Shown: positions 1 through 10,740 of the stretch, in pieces
Layout of the letters: each line of letters begins with the position of its first letter
Position numbering within the stretch: the stretch's first letter is position 1
IMG/VR virus record: IMGVR_UViG_2778260995_000007
Location: 1-12,819 of that record
Length of the DNA: 12,819 bases
Source of the DNA: a virus
Taxonomy: Duplodnaviria > Heunggongvirae > Uroviricota > Caudoviricetes
Reading direction: 5' to 3' (one strand)
The notes under the pieces: model-generated
What the model was told of the DNA's origin: nothing
What the model saw: only the letters and a program-made list of their open reading frames with translations
The model's database searches: none
Made by a program: the position numbers and the translations under genes

Positions 1-117
1 GTTTCGCCGATTGTTTCCGGTGAGGTTATCCGTTCCCGTGGCGGCTCCACCTCTGAATTTACGCCGGGATATGTCAAACCCAAGCACTTAGCATGGCTTT
101 CTGAGGCTTTCGTGTAG
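1..117 (+). pseudogene. E: 5' fragment of lambda-type major capsid protein gene E; frame enters from upstream of the window, is broken after codons ...GYVKPKH (nt 87) and runs into element sequence to a TAG at 115-117
   Basis: Frame 1 translates VSPIVSGEVIRSRGGSTSEFTPGYVKPKH, which matches my recollection of lambda gpE; the continuation ...KPKHEVNPQMTLRRL is found at 10733 onward. Confidence 0.8.
77..86. repeat. Left copy of 10-bp direct repeat AACCCAAGCA (putative attL core)
   Basis: Identical 10-mer at 10731-10740; flanking bases differ on both sides. Confidence 0.6.
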
Positions 118-249
118 TTGCTGGTTTTTACACTTAATCTTTTGATAATAAAGAATAAGTTTATCTGGTGCTTTCACTGAATTTTCCTCGTTATCTGTGT
201 GTTGCAATCATCTCTGTATTGCAGCTTGTATTGCTTTTTGGGGCTAAAA

Positions 250-1485
250 ATGGCTGGCGAGAACAAACTGAGCGACAAAGCGCTTAAAGGATATCTGGGG
301 AAACCCAGAGAAAAGCAGATCACCATTGCTGATGGAAAGGGGCTTTCTATTCGTGTGAGTACTAAAGGGGCTGTGAGCTTTGTTTTCTTCTACAGGTTAG
401 CAGGTGGCCGGGCTGCTCCGGTCTGGCTAACGTTGGGTAAATATCCTGATATGTCACTCAAACAGGCAAGGGAAAAGCGCGACGAGTGCCGTGGTTGGTT
501 GGCTGACAAACGTGATCCGCGTATCCAGATAAAGATTCAGGCTGAAGAACGCTTAAAGCCGGTCACAGTGGAGGATGCACTAAATTACTGGTATGAAAAT
601 TACTGTAAGGTGCGTCGTAAAACTCATGCTGTAACGCTTGGCAGATTTCGAAAGCATATCTTTCCCTATATCGGTCATTTGCCCGTAAATGACACTCACC
701 TATATGAATGGCTGGACTGTTTTGACCGAATTAAACGTAATGCACCAGTTATGGCGGCGTATGTTTTTTCTGACACTAAATTAGCTCTTCGTTTTTGTCG
801 GGTACGCCAGTACGCGACGTGTGATGCTTTAAAGGATTTGCGCATGAGTGATGTGGGGCAGATTGCAGGTAAGCGGGATCGGGTTCTGGATGAAGCCGAA
901 CTCGGCCAGCTCTGGAAGGCAATTTTTGTCGAGCCTGATTTAAAACTAATGTCTGAATACACGCGAAAAATGTTTGTGCTTTGTACACTATTTGGATGTC
1001 GAATGAGTGAAGCCCGATTATCAGAATGGAGCGAATGGGATCTCGAAAGTTGGGTTTGGACTGTACCAAAAGATCACTCAAAAACTGGTGTTGAAATCGT
1101 CAGACCAGTACCTGAAATTCTACGACAGTGGGTAACGGATGTTCACGAAGAGACAAAACATACTGGTTATGTGCTGGGAAGTCTGCGAATTAGAGAAAGC
1201 GTAAGCAAGATTGGGGGGAAAATCGGTAAACGTTTGGGCCATGAAAAACAATGGTCACTACACGACCTTAGAAGAACGCTATCTACTCATCTAAGTGATC
1301 TCGGTGTTGAATTTTATGTAGTAGAACAACTGTTAGGCCATGCGCTACCTGGCGTGGCAGGTGTTTACAACCGGAGTAAGTTTATGGCTAAAAAACTGGA
1401 TGCTCTGGAACTCTGGACTACATATCTCAATAGCATCGCAGGTGCTGATTCAAAAGTGACAATCCTCAAACAAAAGGCTGGTTAA
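250..1485 (+). CDS. int: Tyrosine site-specific integrase, P4-type
   Basis: ORF 199-1485; start placed at ATG 250 (MAGENKLSDKALKGYL...). N-terminal region and C-terminal ...HDLRRT...LLGHA... motifs are typical of P4-family integrases; sits next to the attL repeat. Confidence 0.88.
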   Translation: MAGENKLSDKALKGYLGKPREKQITIADGKGLSIRVSTKGAVSFVFFYRLAGGRAAPVWLTLGKYPDMSLKQAREKRDECRGWLADKRDPRIQIKIQAEERLKPVTVEDALNYWYENYCKVRRKTHAVTLGRFRKHIFPYIGHLPVNDTHLYEWLDCFDRIKRNAPVMAAYVFSDTKLALRFCRVRQYATCDALKDLRMSDVGQIAGKRDRVLDEAELGQLWKAIFVEPDLKLMSEYTRKMFVLCTLFGCRMSEARLSEWSEWDLESWVWTVPKDHSKTGVEIVRPVPEILRQWVTDVHEETKHTGYVLGSLRIRESVSKIGGKIGKRLGHEKQWSLHDLRRTLSTHLSDLGVEFYVVEQLLGHALPGVAGVYNRSKFMAKKLDALELWTTYLNSIAGADSKVTILKQKAG

Positions 1486-1486
1486 C

Positions 1487-1714
1487 ATGAAAAAAATGGC
1501 AATTGTTGATAAAAAGGGTCTGGAGTACATTCCTAACATTGATCGTATGATCCGTGAGAAAGAATGTCGGGAGCTAACCACTCTTGCGAACAGCACACGC
1601 TGGAAGCTGGAGAAGGAAGGAAAATTTCCTAAGCGGATCAAGATTGGCGCTACTGCGGTAGCTTACCGTCTCTCCGAAGTTCAGGCATGGATTAGGGGGG
1701 AATGGCGGACATAA
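1487..1714 (+). CDS. alpA: AlpA-family HTH regulator / excisionase-like protein
   Basis: 75 aa; ...LTTLANSTRWKLEKEGKFPKRIKIGATAVAYRLSEVQAWI is a typical AlpA (Phage_AlpA) HTH; ATG lies 1 nt after the int stop, suggesting translational coupling. Confidence 0.8.
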   Translation: MKKMAIVDKKGLEYIPNIDRMIREKECRELTTLANSTRWKLEKEGKFPKRIKIGATAVAYRLSEVQAWIRGEWRT

Positions 1715-1750
1715 ATGTTGTAGTAAATTGTTATATAAAAGGGTGTAAGC

Positions 1751-2626
1751 ATGGCTACTCGAAAAAAAAATAGCGTAGAAATGAAAACTGTTTGTGAACT
1801 AATCATATCAAGAGATGATATGAAAGATAAAATTCAAGACAGAATTCAAAAAGGATTATTACTCCTACAGAAAAGCATAAATAACAATAGTGACTTGGAG
1901 CTGTTTAATGCTGATTACAGGAAATGGAGTGATTTTAATGCTGAGCTACTGAAGCGTAGTTTCACAAATGATGATTTCAAAGAAGAATATGAAGGTGGGG
2001 CATTTGGTGTTATTTCATTGTACGAGACTTCCTTGGGAGAAAAAATCAGTGAGGCTACGCGTAAACTCCAGAGTAAGATAAGAAAACTAGAGTCGATTAT
2101 GGAGCGACTGGAGTTAATTCCTATATCTTCCAAAGTTGTTGAAGAAAATATTGAAGTACCTCAGAGTTCAGCGGTAAAAACCAAAAAAGTATTCATTGTT
2201 CATGGAAGAGATGAAGTATCAAAAACCAACTTAGAAGTGTTTTTAAGAGAAATTGGCTTAGAACCTATTGTTCTCCATAGGCAAGCTGATGTAGGTCAGA
2301 CAGTGATTGAGAAATTTGAAGCAAATAGTGATGTTGGTTTCGCATTCATTCTTCTCACACCTGATGAGATCGCTTATTTATTTCCGCAAGACTCTTTACC
2401 TGATAATGAAAGAGAAAAGGAGTTACGTGCACGACCAAATGTAATGTTTGAATTTGGTTATTTCGTAGGGAAATTAGGTCGTTCTAAGGTTTGTTGTCTA
2501 TACACAGGTGATGTAGTGATTCCAAGTGATTTGAATGGTCTTATTTATAAAAAATTCAATTCTTCTATTGAAGAAGTAGCATATAGCATTATTAAAGACT
2601 TGCGAGCTACTGGTTACGCAGTTTAG
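1751..2626 (+). CDS. Cargo protein with an N-terminal helical region and a C-terminal TIR-like domain (resembles the COG4271/CAP12-type TIR-like fold); candidate anti-phage effector
   Basis: 291-aa ORF, visibly AT-rich compared with neighbours. C-terminal KKVFIVHGRDE...FAFILLTPDE...RARPNVMFEFGYFVGKLGRSKV matches the motif pattern I recall for TIR-like proteins. Not confirmed by search. Confidence 0.6.
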   Translation: MATRKKNSVEMKTVCELIISRDDMKDKIQDRIQKGLLLLQKSINNNSDLELFNADYRKWSDFNAELLKRSFTNDDFKEEYEGGAFGVISLYETSLGEKISEATRKLQSKIRKLESIMERLELIPISSKVVEENIEVPQSSAVKTKKVFIVHGRDEVSKTNLEVFLREIGLEPIVLHRQADVGQTVIEKFEANSDVGFAFILLTPDEIAYLFPQDSLPDNEREKELRARPNVMFEFGYFVGKLGRSKVCCLYTGDVVIPSDLNGLIYKKFNSSIEEVAYSIIKDLRATGYAV

Positions 2627-2655
2627 TAAATTCTTTGAACTAAAAATCTGCATAG

Positions 2656-2688
2656 ATATAGAGCCATTCGAGATAAATGGCTCTATAT
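2656..2688. terminator. Perfect 13-bp inverted repeat (ATATAGAGCCATT / AATGGCTCTATAT, 7-nt loop) between convergent genes; possible bidirectional terminator or protein-binding palindrome
   Basis: Seen directly; lies 30 nt after the stop of the 1751-2626 gene and 14 nt after the stop of the minus-strand RHH ORF. AT-rich stem, and a T-run on the minus strand only after a 9-nt spacer, so terminator function is uncertain. Confidence 0.4.
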
Positions 2689-2701
2689 GAAATATTATCT
2701 G

Positions 2702-2881
2702 TTAAATTTTGACTTCATATCCGCGTTGCTGTAGTTCTTTGCGAATAATCCTTTTAATCCAGGCTGCTAAAGATTCGTCTCCATCTACTTGCTGTGCTTG
2801 CTCCATCAACTCCCTCAACTCAGGATCTAACCGAAACTGGAACGGAGGATTACCACGTCTTTGATTTTTGTGTGTTGACAC
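2702..2881 (-). CDS. Small Arc/MetJ-like ribbon-helix-helix DNA-binding protein (59 aa from GTG 2881; a 34-aa version from ATG 2806 would lack the ribbon strand)
   Basis: Minus-strand translation VSTHKNQRRGNPPFQFRLDPELRELMEQAQQVDGDESLAAWIKRIIRKELQQRGYEVKI has an Arc-like strand-helix-helix pattern. Below the length cut-off of the supplied ORF track; start codon uncertain. Confidence 0.4.
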   Translation of the reverse strand: MSTHKNQRRGNPPFQFRLDPELRELMEQAQQVDGDESLAAWIKRIIRKELQQRGYEVKI

Positions 2882-2929
2882 GTCAATTACACCCGATGTA
2901 ATGTGTTAATGTGTGATGACACATTACAT
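2875..2929. promoter_or_regulatory. Promoter/operator region: plus-strand TTGACA (2875-2880) - 16 nt - TGTAAT (2897-2902); 11-bp inverted repeat ATGTAATGTGT (2896-2906) / ACACATTACAT (2919-2929) plus tandem TAATGTGT (2899-2906, 2907-2914)
   Basis: Seen directly in the intergenic region between the minus-strand RHH ORF and the plus-strand operon starting at 3012; palindrome arms overlap the candidate -10 elements. Confidence 0.4.
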
Positions 2930-2948
2930 ACGTGTTTAGGAAAATGCA

Positions 2949-2981
2949 ACGCCTCGACGTGCGGGAACACCATCGAGGCGT
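2949..2981 (+). promoter_or_regulatory. GC-rich hairpin in the 5' leader of the replication operon (9-bp stem ACGCCTCGA / TCGAGGCGT, 15-nt loop); no downstream U-tract
   Basis: Perfect inverted repeat seen directly, 30 nt upstream of ATG 3012. Confidence 0.3.
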
Positions 2982-3011
2982 CTAACCAACCCGTTAAATG
3001 AGGTAACGATT

Positions 3012-3377
3012 ATGGCTGGAACACAGCATACCCAAACTCACCCTAAATTTATATACACCTTTCTGGCACTACACCACGACCGCATGGCAGATGGAGCAAC
3101 TACGGTACATGTAGCCGCTGACACGCTGGTTGATGCCCGCAAGATGGTTAAGGAGATGGGCTATACTGCGGCTTTCTGGAAAGGGCGTGAAGAAAACACG
3201 CTGTTTATTCAGAAATGCGAAAACAATTTCATCTGGCGTTTTATCGCCCTGAGCACCGCACAACCACGCGTAATACACATCGAGGCCGCCAGCGAACAGG
3301 AAGCCCGGCTGCAATCCCCAACTGGCTACGTGATGATATTCGCCGCCCGTATTCGTCAGGAGGTGTGCCATGAATGA
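3012..3377 (+). CDS. Hypothetical protein, first gene of replication-module operon
   Basis: 121-aa ORF with GAGGT RBS 6 nt upstream; stop overlaps the next start. Confidence 0.65.
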   Translation: MAGTQHTQTHPKFIYTFLALHHDRMADGATTVHVAADTLVDARKMVKEMGYTAAFWKGREENTLFIQKCENNFIWRFIALSTAQPRVIHIEAASEQEARLQSPTGYVMIFAARIRQEVCHE

Positions 3378-3594
3378 TCTTTATTTTAAAGTGCTGACAC
3401 ATGCTGAAAACGCGCTCGTTTGTGGCAAAAATATGCGAGAAATCTTATCAACCTGGCTTGATGGGACAACAAATGCGGAACACGATGAACGGGATGCTAA
3501 TTTAGCTGGAGCGTTAATTACGTTACTTGATCCTGTCATCAAAGAGCTGGATGAAGCTATAAAAATACACGACCAGAGCTATACCGGAGAATAA
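3370..3594 (+). CDS. Hypothetical small protein
   Basis: 74-aa ORF; AGGAGG 4 nt upstream of ATG; 8-nt overlap with the upstream ORF. Confidence 0.6.
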   Translation: MNDLYFKVLTHAENALVCGKNMREILSTWLDGTTNAEHDERDANLAGALITLLDPVIKELDEAIKIHDQSYTGE

Positions 3595-3597
3595 AAA

Positions 3598-3885
3598 ATG
3601 AAAAATAAATTTTCTGGCTTTATTGCCAGCGGTCAAACTCATTCAAAAATCAGCCTTGGGGATATTTTCAAAGACAGCTATGGCTATCGGGTAAAGATTA
3701 TTTCGGTTGATGATCGTCGTGTCTCTTATTTGCGTGATGGTTATGATTTTGAATGTGTTATGCCGCGTCAGCAGTTCGAAAGAGATTTCATTCTGGTAAA
3801 AAATTGCAAGACAGATAATCAGAGGCGTGCCGCAGGCTATATCCGCAAAATTCGGGCAATGTTAGTTGCCGGAGGTAACAAATGA
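3598..3885 (+). CDS. Hypothetical small protein
   Basis: 95-aa ORF packed tightly between neighbours; stop overlaps the primase start (ATGA). Confidence 0.6.
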   Translation: MKNKFSGFIASGQTHSKISLGDIFKDSYGYRVKIISVDDRRVSYLRDGYDFECVMPRQQFERDFILVKNCKTDNQRRAAGYIRKIRAMLVAGGNK

Positions 3886-5633
3886 AACGTGCTCCGAACT
3901 TAAAATACCAACCGCGCGACAAAATGACAGAAGTCATCATTTTTGCTGGCAGTGATGCCTGGAGCCATGCAAAAGAATGGAATGAATGGGCGGGTAAGCA
4001 TATTGCCGCCGACGATGTGCCGCCTGTCGTGCTGGCTGATGAGCAACTGAAAAATATCACCGATTACCGGATCATTGATGAAGATCGTCAGTGTGTGCGT
4101 GTTTACCGCGCAGGACATATCACAGAGCACAGCATGACGCAGATTGTTACGTTACTGGCTGTGGCTGGAGTGAAGACCGTACACGAATACGCGGGGATTA
4201 CTGACACCAGCCCAGTGGATTTATCCGAGCAGTTGCCGCGACTCAAAGAGGAATGCGAGCGTGGGGAAAGTCTGGTGCTTAATCTTCCGACGAAGCAAAA
4301 GGCGCAACTTTCACAGATGGCAGACAGTGAACGTGCACAACTACTTGCCGATCGCTTTGATGGTGTGTGTGTTCATGCAGAAAGTGAAATCGTCCACGTA
4401 TGGCGCGGCGGGGTATGGTGTCCGGTCAGCACAATGGAGCTGAGCCGCGAAATGGTGGCGATCTATTCAGAGCACAGGGCCACGTTCAGCAAACGTGTAA
4501 TCAATAACGCCGTGGAAGCGTTAAAAGTTATTGCCGACCCCATGGGGGAGCCGTCCGGTGATTTGCTACCGTTCACTAATGGTGTGCTTAACCTGAAAAC
4601 GGGGGAATTTTCTCCGCACTCGCCGGAGCACTGGAGCACCACGCACAATGGCATTGAGTACACGCCACCAGTAGCAGGGGAAAACATCCGCGATAATGCG
4701 CCAAATTTCCATAAATGGCTTGAACATGCTGCAAGAAAAGACCCGCGCAAGATGATGCGTATATGTGCCGCGTTATACATGATTATGGCGAACCGCTACG
4801 ACTGGCAGATGTTCATTGAGGCCACCGGAGACGGGGGAAGCGGTAAGAGTACATTTACCCATATTGCCACCCTGCTTGCTGGCAAACAGAACACCGTAAG
4901 CGCGGAGATGACATCACTCGATGATGCAGGAGGGCGCGCGCAGGTTGTCGGGAGTCGTCTTATCGTCCTTGCCGATCAGCCGAAATATACGGGGGAAGGC
5001 ACGGGCATCAAGAAAATCACGGGAGGCGATCCCGTTGAAATTAACCCGAAATATGAGAAGCGATTCACGACGATAATAAGGGCGGTGGTACTGGCAACCA
5101 ATAACGACCCGATGATCTTTACCGAACGAGCCGGAGGTGTGTCACGCCGTCGGGTGATTTTCCGGTTCGACAACATTGTAAGGGAGGACGAAAAAGACAA
5201 GGAATTACCGGAAAAGATAGCGGCAGAAATCCCCGTAATTATCCGCCGCTTGCTGGCTAATTTTGCTGACCCTGAAAAGGCACGGGCTTTATTACTGGAA
5301 CAGCGTGACGGTGATGAAGCTCTGGCAATAAAGCAGCAAACGGATCCGGTTGTTGAGCTTTGCGCGGCGCTGGAGTTTCTGGAGGAAGCTCGTGGGCTAA
5401 TGATGGGCGGTGGTGGTGACACCGTGAAGTACACGACCAGAAACAGCCTTTACCGTGTCTATATGGCCTTCATGGCATACACAGGAAAGGGGAAATGTTT
5501 GAGCGTGAATGAGTTCGGAAAGGCTATGAGGTCAGCGGCGAAAGTTTACGGATATGAATATATTACGCGAAAAGTTAAGGGAGTCACGCAGACCAACGCA
5601 ACGACTACTGATGATTGCGATGCGTTTTTATAA
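3882..5633 (+). CDS. Replication initiator: primase-associated SF3 helicase-type protein (P4 alpha C-terminal / D5-like family; the pri-rep of PICI-type satellites)
   Basis: 583 aa; Walker A GDGGSGKST and a downstream hydrophobic strand ending in D (LIVLAD) typical of P4-family primase-helicase C-terminal domains; GGAGG RBS; followed by an iteron array. Confidence 0.85.
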   Translation: MKRAPNLKYQPRDKMTEVIIFAGSDAWSHAKEWNEWAGKHIAADDVPPVVLADEQLKNITDYRIIDEDRQCVRVYRAGHITEHSMTQIVTLLAVAGVKTVHEYAGITDTSPVDLSEQLPRLKEECERGESLVLNLPTKQKAQLSQMADSERAQLLADRFDGVCVHAESEIVHVWRGGVWCPVSTMELSREMVAIYSEHRATFSKRVINNAVEALKVIADPMGEPSGDLLPFTNGVLNLKTGEFSPHSPEHWSTTHNGIEYTPPVAGENIRDNAPNFHKWLEHAARKDPRKMMRICAALYMIMANRYDWQMFIEATGDGGSGKSTFTHIATLLAGKQNTVSAEMTSLDDAGGRAQVVGSRLIVLADQPKYTGEGTGIKKITGGDPVEINPKYEKRFTTIIRAVVLATNNDPMIFTERAGGVSRRRVIFRFDNIVREDEKDKELPEKIAAEIPVIIRRLLANFADPEKARALLLEQRDGDEALAIKQQTDPVVELCAALEFLEEARGLMMGGGGDTVKYTTRNSLYRVYMAFMAYTGKGKCLSVNEFGKAMRSAAKVYGYEYITRKVKGVTQTNATTTDDCDAFL

Positions 5634-5646
5634 AAAATGGCAATGG

Positions 5647-5875
5647 TTATCTACCTTGTCTACCTGACTGAAAGAAAATACTTTTATTTCAATGTATTAA
5701 TGCAGGTAGATAACTATTTTTCACTGTCTACCTGTTATCTACCTTATCTACCCATTTTTGTAGACAGGTAAGGAGACGGGTAGAGATGAGGTAGACAGCT
5801 ATTTGGGGCTGTCTACCTCCCTGAAACCCGCGCCATTACTGGCCTGATAACTAATCAGGTAGACAAGGTAGACAA
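5647..5875. repeat. Iteron array, putative replication origin: about 12 copies of GGTAGA(C/T)A in both orientations around an AT-rich stretch (5667-5700)
   Basis: Seen directly: TTATCTACC/TTGTCTACC tandem at 5647-5664; GGTAGATAA at 5705-5713; three copies at 5725-5753; GGTAGACAA x2 at 5858-5875, and others. Confidence 0.7.
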
Positions 5876-5922
5876 GGTGGTGGTGCACAAAAAACTTTTT
5901 AAACGAGGGGGTAAAAATAAAA

Positions 5923-6165
5923 ATGCACACATCAGGAAAACTGAACAAACATATAAAGCCACATTACCGCGCCCTTGATATGGCTGAACACTGGCTAAGG
6001 GTGGCGATTAAGGCAATAGACCGCAACGCCGGGGAAGGATACGCGAAAGCACATCCCGAACTGATAAGCGCATTCATGACAACGGCGGCTGCAAACTTTG
6101 CCACGCTGACCGAACGGGAGATTGCCGAAGCGGAGGAAGTGACAACCATCAATATTAAGTCCTGA
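5923..6165 (+). CDS. Hypothetical protein
   Basis: 80-aa ORF with a G-rich RBS upstream; no recognisable motif. Confidence 0.5.
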   Translation: MHTSGKLNKHIKPHYRALDMAEHWLRVAIKAIDRNAGEGYAKAHPELISAFMTTAAANFATLTEREIAEAEEVTTINIKS

Positions 6166-6176
6166 GAGCAGGCAGC

Positions 6177-6626
6177 ATGACGGCGCAAATAGCAGCTTAC
6201 GGGCGGCTGGTGGACGAGCCACAGGTAAAACATACCAGCAAGGGAACACCCATGACACTGGCACGGATGGCGGTATCTTTGCCATGCAGCCAGGCAGATG
6301 ACGGAACGGCGACGATGTGGTTATCTGTGCTGGCGTTTGGCAGACAAGCCGACGCGCTGGCAAAGCATCACAAAGGCGAACTCCTGAGCGTGGCGGGTAA
6401 TATGCAGGTGAGCCAGTGGACTGGACAGAACGGTGAAACGCGGCAGGGCTGGCAGGTTATCGCAGACAGCGTAATCAGTGCGCGAACGGTGCGACCGGGC
6501 GGCAAAAAAGGTCAACAGGGTCAGGCTACTGACGCACTGAACAGAGCAAAACAACAGGCAGATCAGCAAGGAAGCCATCCACCAGTGGGAGATAATGAAC
6601 AATGGGGAGATGATATTCCGTTTTAA
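6177..6626 (+). CDS. Single-stranded DNA-binding protein-like (OB fold) with canonical acidic C-terminal tip ...DDIPF
   Basis: 149 aa; OB-fold pattern (...WLSVLAFGRQAD...KGELLSVAGNMQVSQWTGQNGETRQGWQV...) followed by a Gly/Gln-rich linker and C-terminal DDIPF, as in bacterial SSB. Confidence 0.7.
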   Translation: MTAQIAAYGRLVDEPQVKHTSKGTPMTLARMAVSLPCSQADDGTATMWLSVLAFGRQADALAKHHKGELLSVAGNMQVSQWTGQNGETRQGWQVIADSVISARTVRPGGKKGQQGQATDALNRAKQQADQQGSHPPVGDNEQWGDDIPF

Positions 6627-6645
6627 ATATTGCCAATAAAAAAAG

Positions 6646-6670
6646 GCCGGAAAAAAATAAATTTTCCGGC
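6646..6670. terminator. Hairpin (9-bp stem GCCGGAAAA / TTTTCCGGC, 7-nt loop) downstream of the SSB-like gene; A-tract on the 5' side only
   Basis: Seen directly; a T-run follows the stem only when read on the minus strand, so plus-strand termination is uncertain. Confidence 0.35.
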
Positions 6671-6844
6671 ATGCTACATAAATCCCGACCAAAGGGAGTG
6701 AAGATATTAACACTAATTATCCGCGCTGAAGTTGTTATCCCAAAACTTTATACAACATTGCACTCGGTTGCATGTATTCGCATGACAAATATCGGTGATA
6801 GCATATATCCACAATTATTTTTAATGAATGCAAAGAGGATGCGT

Positions 6845-7885
6845 ATGGTCGATTTATATTCGCCTACCCAGCTTGTACAGGTGGTTAATGCTGTAGATGT
6901 ACAAAAACAACTAAATGCGTTGTTTACCAGTTTGTTTTTTACTCGCTCTGTAATGTTTGAATCGCGCGATATTATTCTTGATACAATCGACGATCCAAAT
7001 ATCCCAATTGCAGCGTTTTGTTCTCCTATGGTGGGTAGTAAAGTTTCACGTGACGAAGGGTACGAATCAAAAACAATTCGTCCAGGCTATATGAAGCCGA
7101 AAAGCAGCATTGATCCAAATAAGTTAGCTGTGCGCCCTGCTGGTGTATCACCTGAGCAATACAATGCTTTTGGAGCGCGTAATATTAAAGTTAAACAGGC
7201 GATTGTAAATCAGGCTAAAGCTATTCGTGCACGTATTGAATGGCTTGCCGTTCAGGCAATCACAACGGGGAAAAATATCATTGAGGGCGATGGTATTGAA
7301 CGTTATGAACTGGACTGGAATATAAAACCACAAAATATTATCACGCAGTCTGGCGGTGCTGAGTGGTCAGGTAAGGATAAAGAAACTTTTGATCCAAATG
7401 ATGATATTGAGAGCTACGCAGAATTTAGTGAGGGCGTCACTAATATCATCATTATGGGCGGTAATGTATGGAAGAAATACCGTTCATTCAGAGCGATAAA
7501 AGAGGCTCTGGATACCCGCCGTGGTTCTAATTCCGAACTGGAAACGGCCCTTAAAGACCTTGGTGATTCGGTGAGTTTTAAAGGGTATATGGGCGATGTT
7601 GCGATTGTTGTTTACAGCGGACGTTATACCGACGAGGACGGAACTGAAAAACATTTCCTTGATCCTGATTTGATGGTGCTTGGCAATACGGCTCTTCAGG
7701 GGATTGTCGCCTATGGCGGTATTCAGGATCCGGAGCTAACCCGAATGGGGCTGACTAAAGCCGAACTTGCACCGAAAAACTATATTGTGCCTGGTGATCC
7801 GGCTATTGAGTACGTACAAACGCACTCTGCACCACAGCCAATACCGGCCCGCATCAATCGTTTTGTTACCGTTCGCATTGGCTAA
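6845..7885 (+). CDS. Major capsid protein, diverged homologue of lambda gpE, encoded by the element
   Basis: Start moved to ATG 6845 (AAGAGG RBS), giving 346 aa, close to lambda E in size. Shares blocks with lambda E as I recall it: PGYMKPK, ITQSGGAEW, LDTRRGSNSELETA, GDVAIVVYSG, VLGNT, GDPA (roughly 40-50% identity by eye). Confidence 0.8.
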   Translation: MVDLYSPTQLVQVVNAVDVQKQLNALFTSLFFTRSVMFESRDIILDTIDDPNIPIAAFCSPMVGSKVSRDEGYESKTIRPGYMKPKSSIDPNKLAVRPAGVSPEQYNAFGARNIKVKQAIVNQAKAIRARIEWLAVQAITTGKNIIEGDGIERYELDWNIKPQNIITQSGGAEWSGKDKETFDPNDDIESYAEFSEGVTNIIIMGGNVWKKYRSFRAIKEALDTRRGSNSELETALKDLGDSVSFKGYMGDVAIVVYSGRYTDEDGTEKHFLDPDLMVLGNTALQGIVAYGGIQDPELTRMGLTKAELAPKNYIVPGDPAIEYVQTHSAPQPIPARINRFVTVRIG

Positions 7886-7894
7886 GGGGGAGCA

Positions 7895-8236
7895 ATGGCT
7901 ACTCATTACACTGAACTCATGTCTGGCACTGAAGCACTGGTTACTACGCTGGGGATATTTTCAGCCAATAAAGGGGTAATACCTGCGTTTACGCCACTGA
8001 TGCAGGAAGATGCAACTGGTGCGCTAGTGGTATGGGATGGAACGAGCGCAGGCAAAGCGGTTTATGTTTCCGCTGTACAAATCGACACAGCGAAAAAAAC
8101 ACAGGCACAGGTTTATAAGACAGGTGTTTTAAATGTTGATGCTCTGAACTGGCCTGAGTCTGTAAGAGAACTGTCGGCAAAGGTTGCCGCGTTTGTTGGC
8201 TCAGGTATTTCTGTTCAGCCGCTGGCTCGTGTGTAA
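7895..8236 (+). CDS. Head decoration protein, homologue of lambda gpD
   Basis: 113 aa; ...PAFTPLMQEDATGALVVWDGTSAGKAV...YKTGVLNVDALNWPE...AAFVGSGISV parallels lambda D (...PAMTPLM...LVAWDGTTDGAAV...YKSGTFRYEDVLWPE...TAFAGTAISIV); AAGGGGGA RBS. Confidence 0.8.
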   Translation: MATHYTELMSGTEALVTTLGIFSANKGVIPAFTPLMQEDATGALVVWDGTSAGKAVYVSAVQIDTAKKTQAQVYKTGVLNVDALNWPESVRELSAKVAAFVGSGISVQPLARV

Positions 8237-8247
8237 AGGGGGATACA

Positions 8248-8631
8248 ATGCAGAATCATTACAATGACCTTAAGCCAATTGCCGAAATGATGTACCCGAA
8301 TCCAGCTGTAGAGGAATTAAAAGCTATCGCTGACAAAATGTGTTTAAGCGAGCGCCTTGTTGATATGAATCAGGTGATGGAAATTACAACCCTGAGTCGG
8401 CGTACACTGCTAAACCTTGAGGCTAGTGGAGAGTTCCCGGAGCGTGTGCAGGTTACGGAAGGGCGTAAGGCCTGGTATTTAAGTGAAGTGATCGACTGGA
8501 TAAATAATATTCCTCGCGCTTCTGAATATTGCCGCGTACCTGTCCCAAAAAAGCCAGATGCGGCGCTATGCCTCAAGATTGAGCGTGTACGCCGCAATGC
8601 ACGGGATGGTCGCTATAAGCTGATTGGTTGA
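8248..8631 (+). CDS. AlpA/MerR-like HTH DNA-binding protein, larger than a typical AlpA, function unknown
   Basis: 127 aa; central ...MEITTLSRRTLLNLEASGEFPERVQVTEGRKAWYLSEVIDWI is an AlpA-type HTH; AAAGGGGGA RBS; follows the capsid genes. Confidence 0.65.
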   Translation: MQNHYNDLKPIAEMMYPNPAVEELKAIADKMCLSERLVDMNQVMEITTLSRRTLLNLEASGEFPERVQVTEGRKAWYLSEVIDWINNIPRASEYCRVPVPKKPDAALCLKIERVRRNARDGRYKLIG

Positions 8632-9287
8632 TGAAATTAGGGCCCGCTCTGGCTGGCGGGTCCTTTCCGGCGATCCAGAACGTTACGGGGCGTCAGGCGC
8701 GCAGTTTTTTGCTATTTATGAAAATTTTCCGGTTTAAAGCGTTTCCGTTCTTCTTCGCCGTAACTTAATGTTTTTATTAGAAACACCCACTAAAAAGAAA
8801 GGAAACAACAGATGCTGAAAACGTGTTTTTTGGACAGTGTCGTTTCCTTTCTCTGGTTTTGTTGCCGTCTGTCGCGGTCTGTCACCAGAAAAAACTCTCA
8901 CCCCTGCGTTGAATCAGGCTCTACACTAAAGTAGACAATAACGCGCCGCTGGCTTCGCTTCATGGTCGTGGCCTACTTCTGCACTATCGCAACAGCCTTA
9001 TGCGCCCTGCTGGTGAGCTATTGAGTAAGCAGAATGCGGATTACAAGGCATCCTATGCGTTTTGTGGCGTACCGAACACAACCGCTCAGGTGAATCCCGT
9101 TTTGTTAGTTTATGGAAAGAGCCGTATCGGGGGCGCAATCATTTCTGCGTGGATCTATGTCGAAGACAAAATGTGGTATGCGCATCTGGCCGGAGGGTGA
9201 GCAATTTATCAGGGAAGTATCATCTCTACAGGTTTAAGACAACCAGAAGAAGTTATCGAGCAAGTTGGGTATGAAGATTTTCCTATA

Positions 9288-9551
9288 ATGGTAACGTTTA
9301 AGATTCCGGTGTTTGGTATCGTGGTGGGAACATGGAGGAATGTGGATCCGGCAAAATCATTCGGTTTTTTCCGTCAATTCATTGTGGACTGGGATTAGGA
9401 GAGTGTGCTTACTGACCAAGCTCTTAAGGGATATTTATATGCTTACCTAGGCACTGATGAAGCACTTTTCAAATGCTGGGCGGATTATATGAAATGCAGA
9501 TTGGCAGAAAATGAACATAGGTTTAAAAAATATACTGAGACTGTAAACTGA
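9288..9551 (+). pseudogene. Possible decayed ORF: 87-codon frame broken by an in-frame TAG at 9396-9398, no RBS
   Basis: Translation MVTFKIPVFGIVVGTWRNVDPAKSFGFFRQFIVDWD*ESVLTDQALKGYLYAYLGTDEALFKCWADYMKCRLAENEHRFKKYTETVN*; sits in a ~1 kb stretch (8632-9676) without convincing genes. Confidence 0.2.
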
Positions 9552-9676
9552 GTTCGCTGTGATTTAATTCGTGATTTAATCGAAGAGAGGAAAGTGAAAT
9601 GAGCCCTGCTAAGGGCCGCATCTTTATATTGAACGACTTATCACTAGATTAGGAAATCACTTCGAATGATATGCTG

Positions 9677-10549
9677 TTACTTTATAATTCCGTCTTTGAA
9701 AACCATTTTCTTAGCGCCAGAGGTATAGTTTTGAACAATTCCCAATAACTCTTTTGAATAGTCAATTGTAGAAATTGTCTCTGCCGGTTTGTTATATGTG
9801 TAATTAAGTGAGTAACCTCTCAGCTTTAATCTTAAATCACCATTTTCTAACTCTAAATAAGCGTCGGTTAGCTCTTCTTTGTAAGTGCCTGCACCATATT
9901 GGATGTTAGGTACTCTCGCGGATAAGGAGTTTTCTAAGTCGCAGAGAGAATACTTGTCGTGGGTAGTATTATCAACGATGAATATTTGGTTGTTAAGTAG
10001 TCGACTGAACCTTGAATTTAAATCATCTATGTTTAAATTTTTTTGCGACTCAAGCCAGCTTGCATCTATCATTGGTGAGAATGCAGTTATTCTGGGGGGA
10101 GTTATCGCGACGATATTCAATTGAATAGTTTTGATAAGTGGTGTTCCATCTGGCGCGCGCCAGTCTTCGTTATCAGCTTCACGAACTATTAGAAGGTCAA
10201 TTTTATATTGTTCGGCTTTTTTTTGAGCCCCACTTTGATACCCTGTTTTGGTTGCATAAATTAGTCTTAGGCCGGGAATATCTGCTGTTTTTCCGATGAA
10301 TGCGTCAATTTTCTCGATACTTACACTTGAAGCGTAGTCTTTGCATTCGATTACGGTCTTATATTCATAACCTCCTAAGTTAAATTCCCAATACACATCG
10401 AATTGCCTAGTTATGCCGTTTTTATCTACGATTTTTTTGTTTACTTCAACGGTGATGTTTTTCAAGTGAGAAATTTTCTCAGCTTGTATCAAGCTTTGAT
10501 GAATCGCCCCAACAAATTCCTCATAATCTCTGCCAGTGTTTTTAGTCAT
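9677..10549 (-). CDS. Mrr-type restriction-endonuclease-like (PD-(D/E)xK) protein with an uncharacterised C-terminal domain; candidate defence nuclease
   Basis: Start placed at ATG 10549 (GAGG RBS 8 nt upstream; the track's 10567 start is TTG), 290 aa. N-terminal half shows a PD-(D/E)xK pattern (...QFDVYWEF...YKTVIECKDY...SIEKIDAFIGK...LIYATKTGYQSGA...). Visibly AT-rich. Confidence 0.75.
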   Translation of the reverse strand: MTKNTGRDYEEFVGAIHQSLIQAEKISHLKNITVEVNKKIVDKNGITRQFDVYWEFNLGGYEYKTVIECKDYASSVSIEKIDAFIGKTADIPGLRLIYATKTGYQSGAQKKAEQYKIDLLIVREADNEDWRAPDGTPLIKTIQLNIVAITPPRITAFSPMIDASWLESQKNLNIDDLNSRFSRLLNNQIFIVDNTTHDKYSLCDLENSLSARVPNIQYGAGTYKEELTDAYLELENGDLRLKLRGYSLNYTYNKPAETISTIDYSKELLGIVQNYTSGAKKMVFKDGIIK

Positions 10550-10730
10550 TGTGCAGCCTCGTTCCAATCATCAGAGTAACGGTTAAATATTTATACACCT
10601 TGAATCTATGAACAGATTTATGTCACTTCACGCTGTATTGCACGCTGTATTGCATTAAGGAGGAATAATGTCGATTTGATGATGTTTTATCAAGTAAATT
10701 CATTCACATCCTTTCATATTTGACTCATGT

Positions 10731-10740
10731 AACCCAAGCA
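10731..10740. repeat. Right copy of 10-bp direct repeat AACCCAAGCA (putative attR core)
   Basis: Identical to 77-86; the E reading frame resumes directly here (CCC AAG CAT GAG GTG = P K H E V). Confidence 0.6.

What the first reader, a model, noticed from the sequence alone, without database searches (positions are those of the whole stretch)
1751..2626. AT-rich cargo gene with a TIR-like C-terminal domain directly after alpA - candidate single-gene anti-phage effector
The gene is visibly more AT-rich than the flanking integrase and replication genes, which suggests recent acquisition. Its C-terminal half carries motifs I associate with TIR-like nucleotide-binding/NADase domains used in Thoeris-, CBASS- and Pycsar-type defence (VFIVHGRDE...; NVMFEFGYFVGKLGRSKV), fused to a ~140-aa helical N-terminal region of unknown function. 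Satellite accessory slots are known defence hotspots. No partner gene is adjacent, so it may act alone.
Basis: partly seen in the sequence, partly recalled or inferred. Interest (0 to 1): 0.8.

Follow-up and report, generated by a model that had tools for sequence, protein, structure and literature searches.

The report
Stand-alone TIR-like NADase gene on satellite
The gene is real and encodes a helical N-terminal domain fused to a TIR-like, probably NAD-destroying, domain with no partner gene, carried in a cargo slot of a phage satellite; it belongs to a family already catalogued as an untested anti-phage candidate, so it is a sound but not a new lead.

Summary
ORF 1751..2626 (+) encodes 291 aa, lies 36 bp after alpA, and has 34.8% GC against 45-51% in int, alpA and primase.

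Residues 146-270 match Pfam PF10137 (CAP12/Pycsar TIR domain, E=1.5e-33). The predicted fold best matches the TIR-STING NADase. The SfSTING active-site residues R78, N80, E84 and D110 correspond to R228, N230, E234 and D260; three are invariant and D260 is at least 90% conserved.

The whole protein matches PADLOC candidate PDC-S35 (E=4.9e-67), one of 145 untested candidates. RefSeq already calls it a TIR domain protein.

There is no cyclase, STING or cNMP domain and no conserved neighbour, so it is not CBASS, Pycsar or Thoeris.

The N-terminal ~125 aa form a confident helical bundle with no Pfam family. Elsewhere the same module is fused to TIR_2, HEPN-like, DpnII/MboI nuclease or GGDEF domains. 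The same TIR subfamily carries at least four other unrelated N-domain families. This sensor-by-effector shuffling supports a one-protein abortive-infection system.

The carrier is a known helper-embedded PICI inside a lambdoid capsid gene, with two cargo hotspots.

Anti-phage activity and NADase activity are inferred, not shown.

The parts
1751..2626 (+). CDS of the 291-aa protein: N-terminal helical bundle plus PF10137 TIR-like domain. Member of PADLOC candidate family PDC-S35.
   Evidence: ORF. PADLOC PDC-S35 E=4.9e-67 over residues 39-291. 37 of 5426 complete E. coli genomes carry it at >=99.6% identity, annotated 'TIR domain-containing protein'.
1739..1743 (+). Shine-Dalgarno-like AAGGG, 7 nt upstream of the ATG.
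   Evidence: Sequence read. No sigma-70-like promoter was found in the 36-bp gap after alpA, so co-transcription with int-alpA is likely (inference).
1751..2122 (+). N-terminal domain (residues 1-124): helical bundle with no Pfam family; proposed sensor or regulatory module.
2123..2185 (+). Variable, disordered linker (residues 125-145).
   Evidence: pLDDT <50 for residues 129-142. Mean identity is 18% for residues 125-144 in family members from outside the enterobacterial satellites, against 47% for the N-domain and 75% for the TIR domain.
2186..2623 (+). TIR-like domain (residues 146-291), CAP12/Pycsar effector type.
   Evidence: Pfam PF10137 E=1.5e-33, 115.8 bits against a cutoff of 24.7. 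Foldseek best hits are TIR-STING.
2450..2452 (+). Codon GAA for E234, the predicted catalytic glutamate in the FEFG motif.
   Evidence: E234 aligns with SfSTING E84 (residue roles from PMC9402430). It is invariant in 35 aligned family members.
2656..2688 (.). 13-bp perfect hairpin between the convergent TIR gene and orf59; possible bidirectional terminator.
   Evidence: RNA fold -20.9 kcal/mol, z=-3.05. It has no T-run, so the terminator scan did not call it.
1487..1714 (+). alpA, the left boundary of cargo slot 1.
   Evidence: ORF. Annotated as an AlpA family regulator in sibling elements. Homology with the sibling carrying different cargo ends at 1693.
2702..2881 (-). orf59, YlcI/YnfO-family small protein. 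It is a satellite backbone gene divergent from the icd-primase operon and forms the right boundary of slot 1. It is not a TIR partner.
   Evidence: Homologues at 48-90% identity sit at the same position in satellites with other cargo or none.
77..86 (+). attL core AACCCAAGCA, the junction of the lambda-E-like capsid gene and the satellite.
   Evidence: Sequence. The 10-bp identity block is as described for the 11capE HE-PICI (PMC10111431).
10731..10740 (+). attR core AACCCAAGCA; the capsid gene resumes here (..KPKHEVNPQ..).
   Evidence: The flanking pseudogene halves are annotated 'major capsid protein' in siblings.
9677..10567 (-). Second AT-rich cargo gene (slot 2): Mrr_cat-like restriction endonuclease.
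   Evidence: Pfam Mrr_cat E=1.2e-4. GC 0.375. Siblings carry PD-T4-2/NsnA-like or AbiJ-like genes in this slot.

Best explanation
The gene encodes a self-contained anti-phage abortive-infection protein.

Shown here: the C-terminal domain is a CAP12/PycTIR-type TIR domain with an intact NAD+ glycohydrolase active site, comprising R228 and N230 for substrate binding, E234 as the catalytic residue, and D260, which in the TIR-STING filament completes the neighbouring protomer's site.

Inferred, by analogy with TIR-STING, PycTIR and amoeba TirC, where enzymes of this clade are inactive until they oligomerise: the protein is kept off in uninfected cells. The N-terminal helical bundle then responds to an infection cue, most likely a phage protein. 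This drives TIR-TIR assembly through the hydrophobic alphaC face (F233, F235, Y237, V239). The assembled enzyme hydrolyses cellular NAD+, and the infected cell stops growing before the phage completes its cycle.

No second-messenger synthase or separate effector is required. The gene rides as exchangeable cargo in slot 1 (between alpA and the orf59 regulator) of a helper-embedded PICI. There it would protect the lysogen, and therefore the satellite and its helper, from competing phages.
For: Domain and catalytic residues:
- PF10137 matches at E=1.5e-33.
- The fold best matches the TIR-STING NADase.
- R228, N230 and E234 are invariant and D260 is at least 90% conserved in 35 family members. All four align with the functionally defined SfSTING residues.
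- PF10137 TIRs form the NAD-depleting clade, and TirC from that clade is an oligomerising NADase.

Stand-alone status:
- No CD-NTase, cyclase, ThsA, STING or cNMP domain is in the window.
- No neighbour is conserved in 38 loci from many phyla.
- The same gene sits in the same slot with different regulators and replicases in Klebsiella and Citrobacter satellites.

Modularity typical of immune sensor-effectors:
- The N-domain is also fused to TIR_2, GGDEF, Hypoth_Ymh (matching PADLOC Aga_HEPN and PD-Lambda-3_B) and a DpnII/MboI REase (matching Aga_Helical-REase), and occurs with a C-terminal SieB extension.
- The same TIR subfamily, at 50-72% identity, carries at least four unrelated N-domain families.
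- The N-domain evolves faster than the TIR domain, 47% against 75% identity.

Defence context:
- The protein matches PADLOC PDC-S35, a family found by guilt-by-embedding in known systems.
- Slot 2 of sibling satellites holds PD-T4-2/NsnA-like and AbiJ-like genes.
- Some distant loci lie next to RM or type IV restriction genes.
Against: - No experiment exists. PDC-S35 is explicitly untested, and no paper in the searchable library names it.
- The TIR region 203-227 is modelled with low confidence.
- Enrichment of defence genes among neighbours is modest and has no baseline.
- No own promoter was detected. The gene is co-oriented with the helper late operon, so its expression may be tied to the satellite or helper life cycle rather than being constitutive.
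- GGDEF fusions of the N-domain are not obviously toxic effectors.
- Some TIRs of this clade (amoeba TirB and TirD) showed no NADase activity.
Confidence: 0.6

Rival explanations
1. The gene serves the satellite-helper relationship rather than general defence. Read-through from the helper's late operon or the AlpA-driven int-alpA transcript would express the NADase during induction. This could modulate helper development, time cell death, or penalise cells where the satellite fails to excise.
For: The gene is co-oriented with the interrupted late capsid gene and lies 36 bp after alpA, with no detectable promoter of its own. The HE-PICI configuration is described as cis-regulatory with the helper late operon.
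Against: The same architecture occurs in many chromosomal, non-satellite contexts across phyla. Slot 1 holds unrelated cargo (DUF2971) or nothing in sibling satellites, so the gene is dispensable for the satellite life cycle. Slot 2 of siblings carries recognised anti-phage genes.
Confidence: 0.12
2. The TIR-like domain acts on a substrate other than NAD+, for example as a nucleoside or nucleotide N-glycosidase or on nucleic acids. Growth arrest or phage inhibition would then come from nucleotide-pool or nucleic-acid damage.
For: The fold is shared with nucleoside 2-deoxyribosyltransferase and DNPH1-type hydrolases (DNPH1 hit, E=0.012). One N-domain fusion has a weak Nuc_deoxyrib_tr match. Some clade members lack NADase activity in vitro.
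Against: The residues that bind NAD+ in SfSTING are conserved one for one. TIR NADases rank far above DNPH1 in the fold search.
Confidence: 0.1
3. The protein is a Thoeris-like signal generator. The TIR domain would make an NAD-derived messenger for an effector encoded elsewhere in the genome.
For: Bacterial TIR domains can be signal synthases. Weak PADLOC ThsB hits exist for a TIR_2 protein sharing the N-domain.
Against: The window protein has no ThsB_TIR Pfam hit. No ThsA-like or other effector is adjacent in any locus examined. A systematic TIR-signalling survey explicitly sets aside stand-alone TIRs and CBASS/Pycsar-type TIRs as NAD-depleting effectors. A mobile cargo gene that depends on an unlinked effector is unlikely to function after transfer.
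Confidence: 0.06
4. The protein is a TIR-domain virulence factor of the TcpC/TirS type that interferes with host Toll-like receptor signalling.
For: Carriers include urinary, avian and mastitis isolates. Bacterial TIR proteins can be virulence factors.
Against: The family is spread through environmental bacteria of many phyla. The domain belongs to the prokaryotic effector clade PF10137, not to the TIR_2 type known from my own knowledge for TcpC. No secretion signal was seen in the sequence, by visual inspection only.
Confidence: 0.03

Closest known systems
PADLOC phage defence candidate PDC-S35 (Payne et al., guilt-by-embedding set)
   Same: Near full-length HMM match (E=4.9e-67, residues 39-291 onto profile positions 10-257 of 264) and a single-gene layout.
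   Different: No difference in kind; the window protein is a member. The family itself is one of 145 untested candidates, with no described mechanism or domain analysis that I could find.
Cap12 / TIR-STING (CBASS effector; SfSTING, PDB 7UN8 and 9LMQ)
   Same: Same TIR subfamily (PF10137), best structural match, and identical catalytic constellation: R, N and E in cis, D in trans, and a hydrophobic alphaC interface. Activation by oligomerisation is the likely shared logic.
   Different: No STING domain and no CD-NTase gene. The domain order is reversed, with the sensor N-terminal here. The NCBIfam Cap12 equivalog scores 42 bits against a cutoff of 450.
PycTIR (Pycsar effector, PDB 8JSJ)
   Same: The TIR domain is of the same Pfam family and C-terminal to a sensor domain (PADLOC PycTIR E=1.3e-7 over residues 144-273).
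   Different: The N-terminal region is a helical bundle, not a cyclic-nucleotide-binding domain, and no pyrimidine cyclase gene is adjacent.
Swarozyc / Evangelion (DUF4062 TIR-like single-gene NADase defence systems, 2026 preprints)
   Same: One polypeptide combines a TIR-like NADase core with a diversified auxiliary region, is carried by mobile elements and causes abortive infection through NAD+ loss. Swarozyc is activated by assembling with a phage portal. These are the best functional analogues for the model proposed here.
   Different: The TIR-like family differs: there is no DUF4062 Pfam hit for the window protein at E<=1. The auxiliary domain is unrelated.
Satellite- and phage-borne TIR systems of Rousset et al. 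2022 (TIR-NLR on P4-like satellites; 2TM-1TM-TIR on P2-like phages)
   Same: TIR-containing defence cargo in a variable hotspot of a phage satellite or phage.
   Different: TIR-NLR has STAND NTPase and TPR sensor domains. The P2 system has three genes including membrane effectors. The carrier here is a helper-embedded PICI, not P4 or P2.

Membership tests
Pfam PF10137 (CAP12/Pycsar effector TIR domain) | Profile score above the curated gathering threshold | tested here: met
   115.8 bits against 24.7, E=1.5e-33, residues 146-270 covering profile positions 1-118 of 119.
Pfam PF10137 (CAP12/Pycsar effector TIR domain) | TIR (flavodoxin-like) fold closest to solved members | tested here: met
   AF2 model: Foldseek top hits are TIR-STING 9lmq, 9lmr and 7un8 (E 3e-7 to 1e-4), followed by SARM1, SPARTA and plant TIRs.
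Pfam PF10137 (CAP12/Pycsar effector TIR domain) | Catalytic glutamate in alphaC plus NAD-binding R/N and trans-acting Asp | tested here: met
   R228, N230, E234 and D260 align with SfSTING R78, N80, E84 and D110. They are invariant or at least 90% conserved.
Pfam PF10137 (CAP12/Pycsar effector TIR domain) | NAD+ glycohydrolase activity | not testable with these tools
   Needs an enzyme assay.
PADLOC PDC-S35 | Match to the family HMM over most of its length, as a single gene | tested here: met
   PDLC05005 E=4.9e-67 over residues 39-291. No conserved neighbour.
PADLOC PDC-S35 | Anti-phage activity | not testable with these tools
   The authors list it among 145 untested candidates.
CBASS (Cap12 effector) | Adjacent CD-NTase and a cyclic-oligonucleotide sensor domain (STING or SAVED) on the effector | tested here: not met
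   No such gene is in the window. NCBIfam Cap12 scores 42 bits against a cutoff of 450, covering only residues 221-277.
Pycsar (PycTIR effector) | Adjacent pyrimidine cyclase and a cNMP-binding domain on the effector | tested here: not met
   No cyclase ORF. The N-terminus is a helical bundle with no cNMP-binding Pfam hit.
Thoeris (ThsB) | ThsB-type TIR with an adjacent ThsA or other effector | tested here: not met
   No PF08937 hit at E<=1. No effector gene is adjacent in the window or related loci.
Swarozyc / Evangelion (DUF4062) | DUF4062 TIR-like core | tested here: not met
   No DUF4062 hit in the Pfam scan at E<=1.
Helper-embedded PICI, capE type (the carrier element) | int-alpA-primase satellite integrated in, and co-oriented with, the lambdoid major capsid gene through a 10-bp identity block | tested here: met
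   att cores at 77-86 and 10731-10740. Split capsid pseudogene halves in siblings. Description in PMC10111431.

The most novel reading that the evidence does not exclude
The ~125-aa N-terminal helical bundle, which has no Pfam family and only generic structural neighbours, may be a portable infection-sensing module. It has been recombined with at least five output domains: PF10137 TIR, TIR_2, Ymh/HEPN, DpnII-MboI nuclease and GGDEF. Meanwhile the same TIR is recombined with several other unknown N-domains. If so, these proteins form a large, uncharacterised combinatorial family of one-chain sensor-effector immune proteins. Their triggers could be mapped domain by domain, and helper-embedded satellites use them to guard their helper lysogen.
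Probability: 0.35. Interest if true: 0.65.

Novelty: new member of a known kind. Interest (0 to 1): 0.42.

Why it matters
If the model is right, this is a compact, single-protein NAD-depleting immune sensor spread widely across bacteria. PADLOC already lists the family, but nobody has tested it.

The domain-swap pattern found here gives a concrete handle. The N-domain is shared among TIR, HEPN-like, nuclease and GGDEF outputs, and the TIR domain is shared among unrelated N-domains. Escaper phages against proteins that share an N-domain but differ in effector should map to the same trigger.

It also shows that helper-embedded PICIs, described so far for their integration biology, carry two exchangeable defence slots.

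For E. coli genomics it is a minor point: 37 of 5426 complete genomes carry the gene.

Tried and rejected
- **CBASS, Pycsar or Thoeris membership:** rejected. There is no cyclase, CD-NTase or ThsA gene and no STING or cNMP domain. NCBIfam Cap12 scores far below its cutoff.
- **orf59 (2702-2881, minus strand) as partner or antitoxin:** rejected. Homologues occupy the same position in satellites with other cargo or none.
- **Conserved neighbour in 38 same-architecture loci:** none found. The only recurrences are lineage-specific: a ~76-aa ORF in Flavobacteriia and a ~555-aa P-loop protein in Pseudomonas. PADLOC gave only a weak hit for the latter.
- **Homology between this N-domain and the other N-domains attached to the same TIR:** hhalign probability <2%, so they are treated as unrelated. 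Pfam finds nothing in them either.
- **Own promoter:** none detected upstream of the gene, and no canonical terminator, only a hairpin.
- **Literature:** searches for PDC-S35, the RefSeq accessions and COG4271 found no experimental work on this family.
- **TerS remnant in the 8.6-9.7 kb gap:** none found.

Full report
**1. The observation**

The ORF at 1751..2626 (+) is real. It has an ATG start and encodes 291 aa. An AAGGG ribosome-binding motif lies 7 nt upstream, and the gene begins 36 bp after the alpA stop at 1714.

Its GC content is 0.348. The neighbouring int, alpA and primase genes have 0.451, 0.465 and 0.513.

The ORF is not a chance reading frame. 4659 clusters of homologues were found, most of them 291-296 aa and alignable end to end.

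**2. The C-terminal domain**

- Residues 146-270 match Pfam PF10137 (CAP12/Pycsar effector TIR domain) at E=1.5e-33, 115.8 bits against a cutoff of 24.7.
- An AlphaFold2 model built on 35 homologues has mean pLDDT 75.6 and shows an alpha/beta domain from residue 146 to 287.
- Foldseek against the PDB ranks the TIR-STING NADase structures 9lmq, 9lmr and 7un8 first (E 3e-7 to 1e-4). SARM1, SPARTA and plant TIR domains follow.

The HMMER alignment with the 7un8 chain is ungapped over residues 211-272. The Morehouse et al. cryo-EM paper defines the residue roles (PMC9402430). Together they give these correspondences:

| SfSTING residue | Role | Window protein |
|---|---|---|
| R78, N80 | bind phosphate and ribose | R228, N230 |
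| E84 | catalytic | E234 |
| D110 | completes the active site of the dimer mate | D260 |
| F83, F85, L87, L89 | alphaC dimer interface | F233, F235, Y237, V239 |

R228, N230 and E234 are invariant and D260 is at least 90% conserved in the 35-sequence alignment.

The domain is of the CBASS/Pycsar effector type. The Thoeris ThsB family (PF08937) does not hit at E<=1. A recent TIR phylogeny places PF10137 domains in a single clade. That clade contains SfSTING and the oligomerising NADase TirC.

**3. The systems it does not belong to**

The window has no CD-NTase, pyrimidine cyclase or ThsA gene, and the protein has no STING, SAVED or cNMP-binding domain.

The NCBIfam Cap12 equivalogs score 42 and 35 bits against cutoffs of 450, and only around the FEFG motif. 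The PADLOC PycTIR and CBASS TIR-effector models match only the TIR part. The DUF4062 TIR-like family does not hit.

**4. What it does belong to**

The near full-length match is to PADLOC PDC-S35 (E=4.9e-67, residues 39-291). PDC systems come from the guilt-by-embedding screen of Payne et al. That paper states that the 145 PDC candidates are untested.

No paper in the searchable library names PDC-S35. A study that tested eight PDC/HEC candidates did not include it. RefSeq already annotates the gene as 'TIR domain-containing protein' or 'nucleotide-binding protein' in all 37 complete E. coli genomes that carry it, out of 5426, at >=99.6% identity.

**5. The N-terminal domain**

The model shows three long helices (21-39, 46-70, 95-122) and a short one (75-81), with pLDDT above 90. 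A domain-only model reaches pLDDT 86 and pTM 0.76.

An exhaustive phmmer search with residues 1-126 against 1.84 billion representative proteins found 848 proteins at E<=0.001. Of the 150 best hits listed, roughly half show the same N-domain plus PF10137 architecture. Many of the rest are short fragments, and several full-length proteins carry a different C-terminal domain:

- TIR_2 (P0162).
- GGDEF (P0165, P0175).
- Hypoth_Ymh (P0170, P0263). This domain matches the PADLOC models Aga_HEPN and PD-Lambda-3_B.
- DpnII/MboI-type REase (P0261). This domain matches Aga_Helical-REase.
- PF10137 followed by a SieB-like C-terminus (P0259).
- Tandem duplications of the N-domain (P0169, P0179, P0180, P0194).

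The converse also holds. Among 80 loci from GTDB species genomes, only 38 have this N-domain. The others carry the same TIR subfamily at 50-72% identity behind N-terminal regions of similar size. These regions fall into at least four multi-member families, plus several singletons. They are unrelated to this N-domain (hhalign probability <2%) and unknown to Pfam.

Some genomes have two or three such paralogues in tandem (L032, L035, L071, L078).

Within the family outside the enterobacterial satellites, the N-domain is 47% identical to the window protein, the linker 18% and the TIR domain 75%.

A conserved toxic output joined to fast-evolving, exchangeable input domains is the pattern seen in single-chain immune sensors. 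This is the main argument for treating the N-domain as the sensor or regulator. It remains an inference.

**6. Whether it has a partner**

Comparison with sibling elements sets the limits of the variable segment. Homology with E. coli HYM1 stops at 1693 and resumes at 3230. HYM1 carries a DUF2971 gene and a SWIM gene instead of the TIR gene.

The only other gene in that interval is orf59 (2702..2881, minus strand), annotated as YlcI/YnfO family. Homologues at 48-90% identity occupy the same position, divergent from the icd-like/primase operon, in all of these:

- HYM1, which carries the DUF2971 and SWIM genes in slot 1.
- Satellites with no large slot-1 cargo gene (only small hypothetical ORFs).
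- P4-like elements.
- The Citrobacter satellite.

orf59 is therefore a backbone gene, and the cargo of slot 1 is the TIR gene alone.

The K. oxytoca (90% identical) and Citrobacter amalonaticus (77% identical) orthologues sit in the same slot. The Citrobacter satellite has a different replicase (AAA_25) and an extra SWIM gene.

In Plesiomonas, Aeromonas and a metagenomic proteobacterium, the neighbours are all different. Clustering of the +/-3 ORFs around the 38 same-architecture loci found no shared family. The only recurrences were two lineage-restricted downstream ORFs.

**7. Defence context**

Slot 2 of the same satellite family (window 8862-10720) holds different genes in different strains:

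- An Mrr_cat-like endonuclease in this window and in HYM1.
- A DUF262 plus HEPN pair in W284 and TUM9757. It matches NsnA and PD-T4-2_A/B.
- An AbiJ-like gene in KE47.

Among 140 neighbours of distant family members, a handful match type III and type II methyltransferases, type IV and type I restriction enzymes, PbeA, PD-T4-10_B and RT-protease models at E<=1e-10. This suggests an association, but I have no background rate, so I give it little weight.

**8. The carrier**

The window covers a ~10.65-kb satellite with this gene order: int, alpA, [slot 1], orf59, icd-like, DUF4222, D5-type primase, ssb, lambda-E-like capsid, D-like decoration protein, a second alpA-like gene, [slot 2].

The satellite is inserted in frame in the major capsid gene of a lambdoid prophage. 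A 10-bp repeat, AACCCAAGCA, lies at 77-86 and 10731-10740. This is the helper-embedded PICI of the 11capE type described by Tommasini et al. (PMC10111431). That paper does not discuss defence cargo.

**9. Expression**

No sigma-70-like promoter was found in the short gap after alpA. A 13-bp perfect hairpin follows the gene (z=-3.05).

The gene is co-oriented with int-alpA and with the helper late operon. Its transcription may therefore depend on those promoters. That keeps open a role in the satellite-helper life cycle, which I list as the main rival.

**10. Mechanism and confidence**

Shown: domain identity, an intact active site, stand-alone gene structure, modular architecture, and a position as exchangeable cargo on a satellite.

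Inferred: NADase activity, activation by oligomerisation, sensing by the N-domain, abortive infection, and anti-phage benefit.

The closest functional analogues are the DUF4062 single-gene NADase systems Swarozyc and Evangelion. [quoted passage not shown] I put about 0.6 on the stand-alone NAD-depleting defence model.

**11. Novelty and interest**

The gene is a new member of a catalogued yet uncharacterised candidate family. The added value here is the reciprocal domain-swap analysis and the two-slot picture of helper-embedded PICIs. I rate interest as moderate.

Noticed in passing
window 77-10740: The whole region is a ~10.65-kb satellite inserted in frame in a lambda-E-like major capsid gene, with a 10-bp att core AACCCAAGCA at 77-86 and 10731-10740. 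It matches the published 'helper-embedded PICI' 11capE type. The satellite carries its own E-like capsid and D-like decoration genes.
   Followed up: yes
window 9677-10567 (-): A second AT-rich cargo gene (GC 0.375) encodes an Mrr_cat-like restriction endonuclease with no PADLOC match. The same slot in sibling satellites holds PD-T4-2/NsnA-like (DUF262 plus HEPN) or AbiJ-like genes, so this is a second defence hotspot.
   Followed up: partly
window 214-223, 10633-10642, 10645-10654: The decamer CTGTATTGCA occurs once just inside attL and twice in tandem just inside attR. These may be integrase arm-type binding sites.
   Followed up: no
window 5646-5664 and 5734-5752: 19-nt direct repeats (GTTATCTACCTTGTCTACC, 95% identical) lie immediately downstream of the primase gene. 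This is where GN-PICI origins are reported, so they are candidate ori iterons.
   Followed up: no
window 4160-5970: The primase segment does not match the otherwise 96-98% identical sibling satellites at megablast level (583 aa here against 606 aa). This points to a mosaic replacement of the replication module.
   Followed up: no
window 6671-7885: The mechanically listed 404-aa capsid ORF probably starts at the ATG at 6845 (346 aa, with an AAAGAGGA ribosome-binding site), as annotated in relatives.
   Followed up: partly
L032, L035, L071, L078 (GTDB loci): These loci carry tandem arrays of two or three PF10137 TIR genes with different, mutually unrelated N-terminal domains. They look like local diversification of sensor specificity.
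   Followed up: partly
L068, L069, L073, L078, L080 (Flavobacteriia); L021, L022, L024, L029 (Pseudomonas): There are lineage-specific genes immediately downstream on the same strand: a ~76-aa ORF in Flavobacteriia and a ~555-aa P-loop protein in Pseudomonas. The latter gave only a weak PADLOC hit, PDC-M28C. They could be local partners or regulators.
   Followed up: partly
plasmid and phage collections: Relatives of the TIR-like domain (<60% identity) are present on more than 1100 plasmids, mostly from Klebsiella and E. coli. Relatives at ~35% identity occur in P2-like E. coli phages, annotated 'TIR-like domain-containing protein'.
   Followed up: no
L014 (E. coli TUM9757) 9501-10485: In one carrier the satellite's int is replaced by IS66/ISCro1 insertions. 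The TIR gene has a 1-nt deletion and is annotated with a shorter N-terminus, so the element is decaying in that strain.
   Followed up: no
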